The notes under the pieces are model-generated. The model was given only the letters and a program-made list of their open reading frames with translations. It searched no databases and had not been told where the DNA came from. A DNA stretch of 64,000 bases from Rubripirellula sp. (GTDB lineage Bacteria > Planctomycetota > Planctomycetia > Pirellulales > Pirellulaceae), in NCBI GenBank assembly GCA_965216875.1, contig OZ244207.1, positions 4,480,001-4,544,000 of the forward strand. The letters run 5' to 3'. The position numbers and the translations under genes were made by a program. Positions 674 to 3,338 of this stretch are shown piece by piece; the first letter of the stretch is position 1, and every line of letters begins with the position of its first letter.

Positions 674-2083
674 CTAGCGCCGCATACGTCGATTGGTATT
701 CGGACGCAATTCGTCGCGAGTCAAATCGCCGTCACCATTGGAATCGAGCCGCCGAAGGCGCGTTGGAGCTTGCTCTAATTCTTCAGCCGACAACGTGCCG
801 TCACCGTCGAAGTCGAGCGTCATCATCACCGGCATTCGTCGCATCATCTCAGACATTGAAAAGCCGGGGCCGGCACCAGGTCGCGAACCGGGCCTAGATC
901 CTGGGCGGGCGTCGGGCCTAGATCCTGGGCGGGCGTTGGGCCTTGATCCAGGTCGAGCTCCGCCACCCATTGCGCGTCGACTGCCGCCATCGGGATCGCG
1001 ATCGAACGAAACCAAATACTGCTGCGTGACGGGAACGCAAAAGGTCTCGGCATCGTCACATGCAAAATACTTCACGGTGAGCTCGAGAGGTTTACTGGAC
1101 CGTCCACTCACCTCAACCAAAAACTCGCGTGGGTCGGCATCCGCATCAACATCCACCTTGGGCCCCTGCAAGTCTGGTTGATTGACCGAGATCCCCTCGG
1201 GCGTCTTGATCGAAACCTTGATGGCAGGTGCCTTGTTGTTCCAATGAACCTTGTGGAGTGGATCCAAGAAGAAGCCCAAGTAAATCTTGCCGCTGCCCGA
1301 CTCGGCGCGAAGTTTGACGTAATGCGGTGTCTTCGATTCGAGTGGCGTGATCTTGAGTGGCGACATCCGCCCAGGCAGTTGGACGCGCTCGACAACTCCT
1401 TTCCTAGCTGTCTCTCGTTTGGGTTGTGCTGGCATGTCGAGGTCGGCGACGCGCGTTGGTTGATCAACGGCGCCAACGAGCCCTGCCAGATCATCACGCA
1501 ATGCGTCCGGATCACTCCAGGAACGAGACACCACCAACTTGCCTTCGGGATCGATCACGAATTCGGAATTCGGTCGATCGCCAAGCGCATGCTTCAAGTC
1601 GTTGTCCATCGTGTCGCAAATCCACTCGATCTTAGTCCCGAGTGTTCGGCGCGCTTCATCGATGTGCATCAGCCGCTCTTTTAAATTGAACGGAGCGACG
1701 TAACCGTTGTTCTCTGGATGAGCGAGCGACTTGTAGACGTAATAGAACTTGACGCCCTTCGCCGAATAATCTTGATACACCGCCTCCAAACTGGGGACGT
1801 TTCGCAAGAAGGGCGGTCAGGTCAAGCAGCCAAAAACAAGTACCGTGTAGCTGCCCTTGAGTGACGCGGTCGAAAACCGTTCGCCTTGTTGATCAAAGGC
1901 CGACACGGTCGGAAGCTCCGTCCCTACGGCCGGCGTTTGCTGACCTCCACGTTGCTGCCCCGGTCGCTGCTGCGAGTTTGGTTGCTGCTGCGAAGTTGGT
2001 CGCTGGGCAGGGACGATCGTCGGAGAGATCGACAGGACTGCTAATAGCGAAGCGAGGGTGGTGAAGAGCGGTTTTTGAAGCAT
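674..2083 (-). CDS. Exported iodothyronine-deiodinase-like (thioredoxin-fold) selenoprotein, 469 aa, Sec at codon 89; C-terminal DsbD-N-like and EF-hand-like regions
   Basis: ORFs 1817-2083 and 674-1807 are in the same frame, separated by TGA CCG CCC TTC. Read-through gives VLVFGCLT-U-PPFLRNV...SLAHPENNGY...ICDTMDN. There is an N-terminal signal peptide. Confidence 0.85.
873..958 (-). repeat. Intragenic tandem repeat encoding (A)RPGSRP units
   Basis: Repeated gggcctagatcctgggcgggcg-type units; protein ARPGSRPNARPGSRPDARPGSRPGSRPG. Confidence 0.8.
1770..1816 (-). promoter_or_regulatory. Putative bacterial SECIS hairpin immediately 3' of the in-frame UGA
   Basis: mRNA UGA-ccgcccu-UCUUG-cgaaa-CGUCCCCA-GUU-UGGAGGCG-guguau-CAAGA: an upper stem with a GUU loop starting 26 nt after the UGA, and a lower UCUUG/CAAGA stem. 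Confidence 0.6.
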
Positions 2084-2309: not shown

Positions 2310-3338
2310 TTGCCGATGCCCGCATCACCAACTCGCCCGCGTCTGCTGTCGTCACCTGCCTCACGAGCTGTGATCCTCATGGGGCTGTCGGTCCTGATCA
2401 CATCGGTCGCCATTGCCTGCCAAGTTCCGGTGTTTCGCTATGCGCTCGAACGTTGGCCAGCAGACCAATACGAATTGATCGTGCTTCATGACAAGCCGCT
2501 CTCGGCTGGCGACAACGATCGCATCAAGCAACTTCGCGCCTCGAGCGAGACGACTGGAAACGGATTCGCGAACTTCACCGTCACGACTTCCAAGATCGGC
2601 GCAGAACAAGACATCGTCCTGAAGCAGTTGTGGGAGCAGCGCACATCGAAAGACGAGCCGCTGCTGGTGTCGCTCTATCCGCGTAACGCCCAGGAAGTCC
2701 CCGACCGAATTGCATCGGTAGCCCCACTTCGCAAATCTTCGACCGAACACATCGCAACCTCGCCCGTGCGTCAACGCATCGTCGACCACATCGCCGATGG
2801 CGATTCAGCCGTTTGGATCTTCGTGCCCAGCGGCAACAAAGCCGAAGACGCAAAAGCACTCGCAACCTTGAAACAAGAAGTGGCTCGAAACGAAAAGGAA
2901 CTCGAACTTCCACCACAGGAGGAAATCGAAGCCGACGAGTTCTTCAGCGAAGAGACCAAGATTGAGCTTAGACTTTCGTTTTCGATTGTCACACTCGATC
3001 GCGATGACCCGAAAGAACAGTTCTTGCTCGATCTACTGCTTGAAAGCGAGCCGGATTTGCGCCAGCTCGACCAGCCGATGGCTTTTCCCGTTCTTGGTCG
3101 CGGACGTATCCTCTATGCCCTCGTTGGCCCCGGAATCTCGCGTGAAACGATCGCGATCGCCTCGACCTTTATCGTCGGCCCCTGCTCGTGCCAGGTGAAG
3201 GAACAGAACCCAGGATTCGACTTGCTGCTCTCAGCCGACTGGGACGAGCGGGTAGGAACCAAAGCAATCTCCAAACCGATCGAGCCGCGATCGACCGAGC
3301 CCGTATTGCTGACCATCCCGCCGGGCCGCAAGAAGTGA
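2310..3338 (+). CDS. Exported hypothetical protein with conserved-looking Cys motifs
   Basis: Signal-like hydrophobic stretch followed by ACQVPVFRYALERW; GPCSCQVKEQNPGFDLL near the C-terminus. Confidence 0.75.
   Translation: MPMPASPTRPRLLSSPASRAVILMGLSVLITSVAIACQVPVFRYALERWPADQYELIVLHDKPLSAGDNDRIKQLRASSETTGNGFANFTVTTSKIGAEQDIVLKQLWEQRTSKDEPLLVSLYPRNAQEVPDRIASVAPLRKSSTEHIATSPVRQRIVDHIADGDSAVWIFVPSGNKAEDAKALATLKQEVARNEKELELPPQEEIEADEFFSEETKIELRLSFSIVTLDRDDPKEQFLLDLLLESEPDLRQLDQPMAFPVLGRGRILYALVGPGISRETIAIASTFIVGPCSCQVKEQNPGFDLLLSADWDERVGTKAISKPIEPRSTEPVLLTIPPGRKK

What the first reader, a model, noticed from the sequence alone, without database searches (positions are those of the whole stretch)
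674..2083. Hidden exported selenoprotein of the iodothyronine-deiodinase-like family (CxxU)
Seen: the 88-aa ORF ending ...VLVFGCLT and the 377-aa ORF downstream are in one frame, separated only by TGA-CCG-CCC-TTC. Joined, they give GCLT-U-PPFLRNV, then YVYKSLAHPENNGY, ERL, ICDTMDN and PNSEFVIDPEGKLV. Established: animal iodothyronine deiodinases have FGSCT-U-PPF, EAHPSDGW and DTMDN-like motifs. Inference: this is one 469-aa secreted selenoenzyme with CxxU instead of SxxU. It could be a periplasmic thiol oxidoreductase or a reductive dehalogenase for halogenated aromatics. Standard annotation would split it into two genes.
Basis: partly seen in the sequence, partly recalled or inferred. Interest (0 to 1): 0.85.

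Follow-up and report, generated by a model that had tools for sequence, protein, structure and literature searches.

The report
Selenium redox enzyme with built-in relay
Two apparent genes are one reading frame broken by a single UGA that very likely encodes selenocysteine, giving a predicted exported redox enzyme folded like thyroid-hormone deiodinases that likely recharges its selenium through an attached cysteine-pair domain; it lacks key deiodinase residues, so removing halogens is the less likely job and its substrate is untested.

Summary
One TGA at codon 89 joins the 88- and 377-aa ORFs into a 469-aa frame. Selenocysteine is very likely:
- TGA sits at this position in 50 of 50 related loci covering it.
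- A covarying SECIS-type hairpin follows it.
- The genome has selA, selB, selD and tRNA-Sec.
- Cys versions exist, and 0 of 11 Cys-only genomes gave a tRNA-Sec match.

Domain 1 folds closest to mouse Dio3 (Z 19.7). But Dio's Glu200 is Leu, Ser167 is Cys and His219 falls in a gap, so it fails deiodinase membership.

Best reading: an exported selenol reductase with an internal dithiol relay, likely fed by DsbD. Dehalogenation is about 12% likely.

Bacterial deiodinase-like selenoproteins and their EF-hand fusion are in print. I did not find this CxxU plus DsbD-alpha form in the inventories checked. This scan already noted the family in three other genomes.

The parts
674..2083 (-). Full gene, 469 codons plus TAG stop, with one in-frame TGA
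2006..2083 (-). Predicted signal peptide, residues ~1-26 (judged by hydrophobicity and eye; no SignalP run)
   Evidence: most hydrophobic 15-mer of the protein starts at residue 10; similar N-termini in most homologues
1934..2005 (-). Gln/Pro/Gly-rich linker, residues 27-50
   Evidence: sequence
1463..1933 (-). Domain 1: deiodinase/TlpA-like thioredoxin fold, residues ~51-207, active site C86-L-T-U89
   Evidence: Pfam AhpC-TSA above cut-off, T4_deiodinase below; model pLDDT 92.8; best VIA match Dio3 4tr4, Z 19.7, rmsd 2.0, 153 aligned
1817..1819 (-). TGA codon 89, predicted selenocysteine
1782..1798 (-). SECIS-type hairpin beginning 18 nt after the UGA, A-GUU-U apical loop, inside codons 96-101
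   Evidence: synonymous freeze; covariation; core present in 82 of 82 TGA rows vs 3 of 15 Cys rows
1715..1735 (-). Y117-K-S-L120-A-H122-P123, counterpart of the Dio Tyr197/Glu200/His202 motif with Leu for Glu
998..1366 (-). Domain 2: DsbD-alpha-like immunoglobulin sandwich, residues ~240-362
   Evidence: model pLDDT 94.5; Foldseek rank 1 DsbD-alpha 1jpe, E 2.4e-3; VIA Z 7.5, tied with generic Ig folds; Pfam DsbD_N in 40 of 78 members
1037..1060 (-). Conserved cysteine pair C342-x6-C349 in the last beta-hairpin of domain 2
   Evidence: invariant in 78 of 78 aligned domains; 99% and 97% weighted over 282 rows
863..958 (-). Low-complexity RPGS-type repeat linker, residues ~376-407
   Evidence: sequence
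710..814 (-). Two EF-hand-like Ca2+-binding loops (424-435, 447-458)
   Evidence: Pfam EF-hand_5 and EF-hand_1 above cut-off; loop pattern

Best explanation
The gene likely encodes one exported selenoenzyme in which Sec89 is predicted to reduce an oxidant in the cell envelope (likely a hydroperoxide or an oxidised protein thiol) and would be recharged by a built-in cysteine-pair domain.
Step 1 (shown by sequence and comparative data; Se incorporation itself inferred): SelB and tRNA-Sec read the UGA with the hairpin 18 nt downstream.
Step 2 (predicted): the signal peptide exports the protein.
Step 3 (inferred): Sec89 lies where Dio Sec170 lies, attacks the substrate, and is resolved by Cys86 into a C86-U89 selenenylsulfide.
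Step 4 (inferred): the C342/C349 dithiol of the DsbD-alpha-like domain reduces that bond within the same chain, as DsbD-alpha reduces CcmG-type thioredoxin folds.
Step 5 (inferred): the C342-C349 disulfide is re-reduced by the genome's DsbD, most simply by its gamma domain.
The EF-hand tail is a variable accessory that probably binds Ca2+.
For: Sec decoding:
- TGA in 50 of 50 loci.
- Pro97 is CCC in 36 of 36 and Ser98 is AGT in 33 of 33, while neighbouring codons vary; amino acids change (PSL, PGL, SRM) but the hairpin stays.
- 88.7% of cells paired vs 30-58% when slid; 6 compensatory cells vs 1.5 in shuffles.
- selA/B/D and tRNA-Sec in the own genome.
- selA match in 45 of 49 TGA-form genomes and tRNA-Sec in the other 4.
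- Among 151 family genomes, 43 of 44 TGA-form genomes match selA and the 44th has tRNA-Sec; 10 of 11 Cys-only genomes lack a selA match and 0 of 11 match tRNA-Sec.
Relay:
- Domain 2 resembles DsbD-alpha, with its Cys pair placed like that of the genome's own DsbD-alpha.
- All four redox residues are 96-99% conserved.
- Of 38 full-length open-frame alignments, 34 keep both centres; 3 of the 4 that lose a domain-1 Cys also lose a domain-2 Cys, and none with intact CxxC loses one.
- Two-domain model pTM 0.87. The top inter-domain couplings (H165-D365, E124-R233, F132-Y356, K135-T252) fall on the loops beside the active site.
- A complete DsbD (alpha-alpha-beta-gamma) is encoded elsewhere in the genome.
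- DsbD-gamma to alpha to substrate flow is described in PMC3322552.
Against: - No substrate, activity or expression evidence.
- The DsbD-alpha likeness is modest: Foldseek E 2.4e-3, TM about 0.5; VIA Z 7.5, not above unrelated Ig folds; Pfam 20.5 bits against a cut-off of 25.
- The coupling analysis has only about 195 effective sequences for 325 columns.
- The co-loss count rests on 4 sequences.
- No conserved DsbD/CcdA or substrate gene lies beside the locus.
- The isolated hairpin is weak (-3.2 kcal/mol for 17 nt, -7.2 for 46 nt, against the model's -7.5), and the region folds no better than shuffles.
- The closest fold is still Dio3, and Tyr117, Thr88 and His122 are kept.
Confidence: 0.55

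Rival explanations
1. Reverse relay: the CxxU domain acts like DsbD-gamma and passes electrons to the DsbD-alpha-like domain, which then reduces client envelope proteins, making a soluble electron hub.
For: In DsbD the thioredoxin-fold gamma domain reduces alpha, and alpha is the output (PMC3322552). Domain 1 matches TlpA/ResA folds at Z about 17. The same conservation and co-loss data fit.
Against: Sec occupies the second position of the motif (the Dio position), not the first, normally attacking, thioredoxin position (thioredoxin mechanism recalled). The deiodinase-type insertion with His122 is conserved, which suggests a substrate site on domain 1.
Confidence: 0.2
2. Sec-dependent reductive dehalogenase for iodinated or brominated aromatics, with domain 2 as its built-in reductant.
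For: Best structural match is Dio3 (Z 19.7 vs 17.3 for the next), and the best profile hits are Dio3 and Dio2. T88, U89, PPF, Y117 and H122 are kept. Many named hosts are marine isolates.
Against: The Glu200 position is Leu in 97%, and Glu-to-Ala inactivates human Dio1-3 (PMC7506546). Ser167 is Cys and His219 falls in a gap. The insertion loop is about 13 residues shorter, and the GGPGP loop of canonical bacterial deiodinase-like proteins is replaced. PMC1088965 itself proposes a redox role for bacterial deiodinase-like proteins.
Confidence: 0.12
3. C342-C349 is a structural disulfide in an exported Ig domain that only binds substrate or partner; the CxxU domain is reduced directly by DsbD.
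For: Exported beta-sandwiches often carry structural disulfides (general knowledge). The fold match is not well separated from generic Ig domains.
Against: Cys spacing and position match the catalytic pair of DsbD-alpha. The pair is lost together with CxxC in 3 of 4 degenerate members.
Confidence: 0.1
4. The UGA is a true stop or is read as Trp/Cys, and the halves are separate or the gene is broken.
For: No direct expression or mass-spectrometry evidence was available.
Against: 50 of 50 TGA; Cys/Sec pairs; hairpin only in TGA forms; TGA form confined to genomes with Sec machinery. The only TCA-anticodon tRNA listed is tRNA-Sec.
Confidence: 0.02

Closest known systems
Bacterial 'deiodinase-like' selenoproteins (PF00837; PMC1088965, PMC2398784; Table 1 of PMC13188914)
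   Same: Thioredoxin fold with deiodinase insertion, G-x-x-T-U-P-P-F, H-P motif, ER and DT-MD motifs, in-ORF bacterial SECIS, Cys homologues
   Different: The sequences I saw in the Sargasso and GOS supplements are FGSYTU...EAHP types, and no GCLT or HWNN string occurs there. The reviews list the motif as UxxC. This family has CxxU, LAHP and a fused DsbD-alpha-like domain.
NCBIfam NF038285 deiodinase_rel
   Same: Related domain, EF-hands and signal peptide; true members lie next to this family in loci L104 and L119
   Different: Scores 54 bits against a cut-off of 250, whereas those neighbours score 324-329. True members have EF-hands before the catalytic domain, keep EAHP and lack domain 2.
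Animal iodothyronine deiodinases Dio2/Dio3 (9H48, 4TR3/4TR4)
   Same: Closest solved fold; Sec position and Thr169, Tyr197, His202 counterparts
   Different: Ser167 is Cys, Glu200 is Leu, His219 is unaligned; extra Ig and EF-hand domains
Fusions reported in PMC9402790: deiodinase-like + EF-hand, and Prx-like (U/CxxC) + Pfam11412
   Same: Each of the two domain pairings found here is in print for marine selenoproteins, with 'additional conserved Cys residues' noted
   Different: They are reported as separate proteins, the PF11412 fusion with Sec in the first position. Figure 2 could not be seen, so I cannot exclude that its deiodinase-like/EF-hand example is this family.
DsbD-alpha (1JPE, 1L6P) with its TlpA/ResA/CcmG partners (1Z5Y)
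   Same: Ig-like domain with a hairpin Cys pair, together with a TlpA-like thioredoxin fold
   Different: Here both are in one soluble chain without the membrane domain, and the thioredoxin fold carries Sec and a deiodinase insertion.

Membership tests
Bacterial selenoprotein (SelB/bSECIS) | In-frame UGA aligned with Cys in homologues | tested here: met
   TGA in 50 of 50 loci; TGC/TGT in all 15 open-frame copies of this family read from fetched regions; Cys in 8 of 8 listed proteins spanning the site
Bacterial selenoprotein (SelB/bSECIS) | Hairpin with loop G, 16-37 nt after UGA (model in PMC13188914) | tested here: met
   Loop about 25 nt downstream with pattern N1-G-U-N-N2; covariation; 82 of 82 vs 3 of 15
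Bacterial selenoprotein (SelB/bSECIS) | SECIS folding energy at or below -7.5 kcal/mol | tested here: inconclusive
   -3.2 (17 nt), -7.2 (46 nt), -23.8 (80 nt, contains the same hairpin); not better than shuffles
Bacterial selenoprotein (SelB/bSECIS) | selA, selB, selD, tRNA-Sec in the genome | tested here: met
   all above curated cut-offs
Bacterial selenoprotein (SelB/bSECIS) | Selenium shown in the protein | not testable with these tools
   needs 75Se labelling or MS
Iodothyronine deiodinase | Thioredoxin/Prx-like fold with deiodinase insertion; Sec in the beta1-alpha1 loop | tested here: met
   VIA Z 19.7, rmsd 2.0, 153 aligned to 4tr4; profile alignment
Iodothyronine deiodinase | Thr169, Tyr197, His202 | tested here: met
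   T88, Y117, H122 at 98-100%
Iodothyronine deiodinase | Glu200 (essential per PMC7506546) | tested here: not met
   Leu120, 97% weighted over 282 rows
Iodothyronine deiodinase | Ser167 (SxxU) | tested here: not met
   Cys86, 99%
Iodothyronine deiodinase | His219 | tested here: not met
   falls in a two-residue gap of the profile alignment with 4tr3; judged by sequence alignment only
Iodothyronine deiodinase | Arg275 substrate clamp | tested here: inconclusive
   the alignment to 4tr3 ends before it; the GGPGP loop of bacterial deiodinase-like proteins is replaced by R-S-W-S
Iodothyronine deiodinase | PF00837 gathering score 27 | tested here: not met
   23.5 bits
Iodothyronine deiodinase | Deiodination activity | not testable with these tools
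   needs assay
NF038285 deiodinase_rel | Curated cut-off 250 bits | tested here: not met
   54.2 bits, covering only profile positions 173-321 of 347
DsbD-alpha (PF11412) | Ig-like fold | tested here: inconclusive
   Ig-like sandwich; Foldseek rank 1 DsbD-alpha at E 2.4e-3; VIA Z 7.5, rmsd 3.5, 99 aligned, tied with other Ig folds
DsbD-alpha (PF11412) | Cys pair in the C-terminal beta-hairpin | tested here: met
   C342/C349 invariant in 78 of 78; same placement as in the genome's DsbD-alpha
DsbD-alpha (PF11412) | Pfam gathering score 25 | tested here: not met
   20.5 bits for the window's domain; 40 of 78 members match at E<=0.05, best 2.3e-7
TlpA/ResA thiol-disulfide oxidoreductase | CxxC-type motif in an extended thioredoxin fold | tested here: met
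   C86xxU89 (CxxC in Cys forms); VIA Z 17.1-17.3 to ResA/SdbA
TlpA/ResA thiol-disulfide oxidoreductase | Conserved cis-proline opposite the motif | tested here: inconclusive
   P171 is 81% conserved; register and cis geometry not checked

The most novel reading that the evidence does not exclude
A self-recharging selenium dehalogenase: an exported bacterial enzyme that strips iodine or bromine from marine halogenated aromatics by deiodinase-type chemistry without the Glu200 network, and carries its own DsbD-alpha-like reductant. It would give a first function for a bacterial deiodinase relative and a model for how deiodinases are recycled.
Probability: 0.12. Interest if true: 0.85.

Novelty: new variant of a known kind. 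Interest (0 to 1): 0.52.

Why it matters
It adds a widespread selenoprotein subfamily that gene callers cut in two. A profile of domain 2 finds 366 clusters at 50% identity, and the family occurs in 56 of 151 genomes of this family searched, plus Acidobacteriota, Verrucomicrobiota and Arenicellaceae. It sits between TlpA-type CxxC oxidoreductases and deiodinases, and it appears to carry its reducing partner in the same chain. Natural Cys versions exist and should be easy to express, so two questions become directly testable: what bacterial deiodinase-like proteins do, and how a deiodinase-fold selenol is recycled. The decoding itself is ordinary.

Tried and rejected
- Paralogues in the own genome: none beyond EF-hand and weak TlpA matches.
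- Gene neighbourhood in 50 TGA loci, 16 fetched regions and the own locus: no conserved DsbD/CcdA, haloperoxidase or substrate gene recognised among the clusters printed. Recurring neighbours are a PQQ-propeller-like protein (14 loci) and sulfatases (14 loci); the largest clusters are antisense shadows of the gene itself.
- Promoter scan: 0 sigma-70-like sites.
- RNA evidence: no RNA holder listed.
- Sequence search of the PDB with the domain-2 profile: 0 hits.
- Single-sequence folding does not single out the SECIS. A loose genome-wide hairpin rule is unspecific: 811 candidates, and 43 of 244 after a coding filter. So the SECIS claim rests on the comparative data.
- The careful tree did not finish. 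The quick tree needs 5-7 Sec/Cys changes and has only a midpoint root, so I claim no direction of change.
- No language-model look-alike search, no cluster-name look-up and no domain-docking prediction could be obtained, so the distance between the two redox centres stays open.
- Literature searches.

Full report
1. Observation. The finding lies on the minus strand. ORFs 1817..2083 (88 aa) and 674..1807 (377 aa) share a frame, and reading TGA as U gives one 469-aa protein with a single odd codon, U89. All quoted motifs are present. Contigs from two runs of one study cross the codon with no differing letter, so it is not an assembly error.

2. The UGA is very likely selenocysteine. A scan of genome contigs gave 51 loci; 50 cover position 89 and all 50 have TGA in GCLT*P. 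They come from Planctomycetota, Acidobacteriota, Verrucomicrobiota and Arenicellaceae. A protein search found 979 hits, of which 120 were listed. Of these, 112 align only from query residue 93 or later, as expected if gene callers cut at the TGA, and the 8 that span the site all have Cys. The own genome encodes tRNA-Sec, selB, selA and selD above curated cut-offs.

The TGA form tracks the Sec machinery. Of 49 genomes holding TGA loci (L067 left out as a second locus of the same genome), 45 match selA and the other 4 have tRNA-Sec. In 151 genomes of the own family, 56 have a match: 44 with a TGA form, 11 with only open-frame forms, and 1 weak distant match that I set aside. For matches not fetched as loci, the TGA position was not checked. 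Of the 44, 43 match selA (one as a partial at a contig edge) and the 44th has tRNA-Sec. Of the 11, 10 lack a selA match, one has a weak 277-bit match, and none matches tRNA-Sec. The open-frame forms have TGC or TGT at the site. Background selA frequency is high (114 of 151) and kin are not independent, so the informative part is the Cys-only group.

3. SECIS. In 48 distinct sequences, synonymous variation collapses at codons 96-100 only: Pro97 is CCC in 36 of 36 and Ser98 is AGT in 33 of 33. The encoded residues vary (PSL, PGL, SRM) while a 7-bp hairpin with a G-led loop is kept. On 38 sequences (the window plus 37 of 50 loci, near-duplicates dropped), 88.7% of cells pair against 30-58% when slid, with 6 compensatory cells against 1.5 in shuffles; one of the seven pairs is usually a mismatch. 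The hairpin core is in 82 of 82 TGA rows (some loci counted twice) and 3 of 15 Cys rows. Position and loop fit the bSECIS model quoted in PMC13188914. Against this, the hairpin alone is energetically weak, and the region folds no better than shuffles.

4. Anatomy. The order is: predicted signal peptide (no dedicated predictor), Gln-rich linker, domain 1, domain 2, an RPGS repeat, and two EF-hands. The model of residues 48-372 was built from 44 sequences (the window plus 43 of 50 loci) and has pLDDT 92.8 and pTM 0.87. Domain 1 matches Dio3 best (Z 19.7, rmsd 2.0, 153 aligned), then SdbA/ResA/DsbE types at Z about 17. Foldseek ranks DipZ and ResA above Dio3 and Dio2. Domain 2, modelled alone from 78 sequences (the window plus 77 of 82 rows), is an Ig-like sandwich. 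Its top Foldseek match is DsbD-alpha (E 2.4e-3), VIA gives Z 7.5 tied with unrelated Ig folds, and DsbD_N is the only Pfam family hit, in 40 of 78 members. C342 and C349 are invariant in that alignment and are placed like the pair in the genome's own DsbD-alpha. Among 150 listed representatives of domain 2, 96 carry all or part of domain 1, 51 are too short to tell, and 3 lack it despite room, so the two domains travel together.

5. It is not a deiodinase by membership. Aligned to Dio3 and Dio2, Thr169, Sec170, Tyr197 and His202 are kept. Ser167 is Cys, Glu200 is Leu (97% weighted over 282 rows) and His219 is in a gap. PMC7506546 reports that Glu-to-Ala inactivates human Dio1-3 and Ser167Ala cuts activity by over 90%. 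PMC12025243 names His219, Glu200 and Ser167 as the proton path. Canonical NF038285 members, found next to this family in L104 and L119, keep EAHP, a longer insertion and a GGPGP loop, and score 324-329 bits against 54 here.

6. Mechanism. I commit to an exported selenol reductase with an internal relay (0.55). Sec89 attacks an envelope oxidant, Cys86 resolves it, C342/C349 reduces the selenenylsulfide, and DsbD restores the dithiol. A complete DsbD with two alpha domains is in the genome, and PMC3322552 describes gamma to alpha to substrate flow. Support for coupling of the two centres is circumstantial. Of 38 full-length open-frame alignments, 34 keep both centres; 3 of the 4 that lose a domain-1 Cys also lose a domain-2 Cys, and none loses only the latter. 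The best inter-domain couplings involve residues 124-135 and 165, beside the active site, but with only about 195 effective sequences. Shown: reading frame, conservation, machinery, predicted folds. Inferred: Se incorporation, export, relay, its direction and the substrate class. Rivals are a reverse relay (0.2), a dehalogenase (0.12), a structural disulfide (0.1) and no read-through (0.02).

7. What is known. Bacterial deiodinase-like selenoproteins date from 2005 (PMC1088965: passages and supplement search) and are listed with motif UxxC in two reviews (PMC9312934: passages; PMC13188914: passages and parts 1-2 of 3 of section 7, including all of Table 1). By names and motifs, no Table 1 entry corresponds to a CxxU deiodinase-like/DsbD-alpha protein; I did not fetch the representative accessions. 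The Sargasso and GOS sequence supplements hold no GCLT or HWNN string (PMC2398784 passages). PMC9402790 (passages, section 10, 12 of 17 supplements) reports a deiodinase-like + EF-hand fusion and a Prx-like U/CxxC + Pfam11412 fusion, each with extra conserved Cys. Its Figure 2 was not visible, so partial prior description is possible. A planctomycete selenoprotein list (PMC4807772: passages and Table S9; files 13-14 not searched) has no deiodinase-like entry but has a 'hypothetical' and two thioredoxin-like entries that I could not identify. PMC12025243, PMC7506546 and PMC3322552 were read as passages only. Nine searches found no paper on this architecture; subscription papers and NCBI annotations beyond NCBIfam 20.0 were not covered. 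Earlier notes of this scan describe the same family in three other genomes. I read them after stating my reading, and they are not independent evidence.

8. Verdict. A real, usually mis-annotated selenoprotein gene with ordinary decoding. It is a new variant of a known kind: the CxxU site and the fused DsbD-alpha-like cysteine pair set it apart from catalogued deiodinase-like proteins. Interest 0.52.

Noticed in passing
window ~556-625: High-copy GC-rich hairpin-forming repeat just downstream of the stop codon: 157 blastn hits in the genome, 120 of them 35 nt or longer, with a depth spike in both runs. Looks like a REP/MITE-type element.
   Followed up: partly
G000:C1:5002400 (-), locus L124: Another likely selenoprotein: TPVY-U-CIASS in a repeat (FG-GAP-like by eye) protein with a C-terminal DsbD_N domain above cut-off, and a perfect 7-bp hairpin with an AGUUU loop. 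A second Sec plus DsbD-alpha fusion in the same genome.
   Followed up: partly
G000:C1:333089 (+), 1772173 (+), 6090558 (-), 3658658 (-): Further in-frame TGA candidates with hairpins: SL-U-HGP near the sel operon, HW-U-PHC redoxin-like, FTGG-U-TKEC peroxiredoxin-like, GL-U-PGC in a large protein. Some appear to match other notes of this scan.
   Followed up: no
L119 (G186) and L104 (G130): L119 holds three adjacent TGA genes: two of this family and one NF038285 member. L104, from a genome with no tRNA-Sec match, has one of each in Cys form.
   Followed up: partly
G000:C1:325171-327417 (-): selD is a 749-codon open frame with a long N-terminal extension, probably the Ndh-SelD fusion type, directly after selB and selA.
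   Followed up: no
G000:C1:591000-632638 (-): Large tRNA arrays, about 48 of the 99 tRNA genes called.
   Followed up: no
G000:C1:3282034-3282109 (-): ARAGORN calls a tRNA with CTA anticodon ('Pyl'), and another with an expanded anticodon loop at 3442059.
   Followed up: no
window 2310-3338 (+): Divergent 342-aa predicted exported protein with CQVPVFRYALERW and CSC motifs and no significant Pfam/NCBIfam hit; also adjacent in L023 and L025.
   Followed up: no
L118 (G120): A distant TGA-containing relative (GGYT-U-PPF, QKEPH) without domain 2, apparently a third deiodinase-like subfamily.
   Followed up: no
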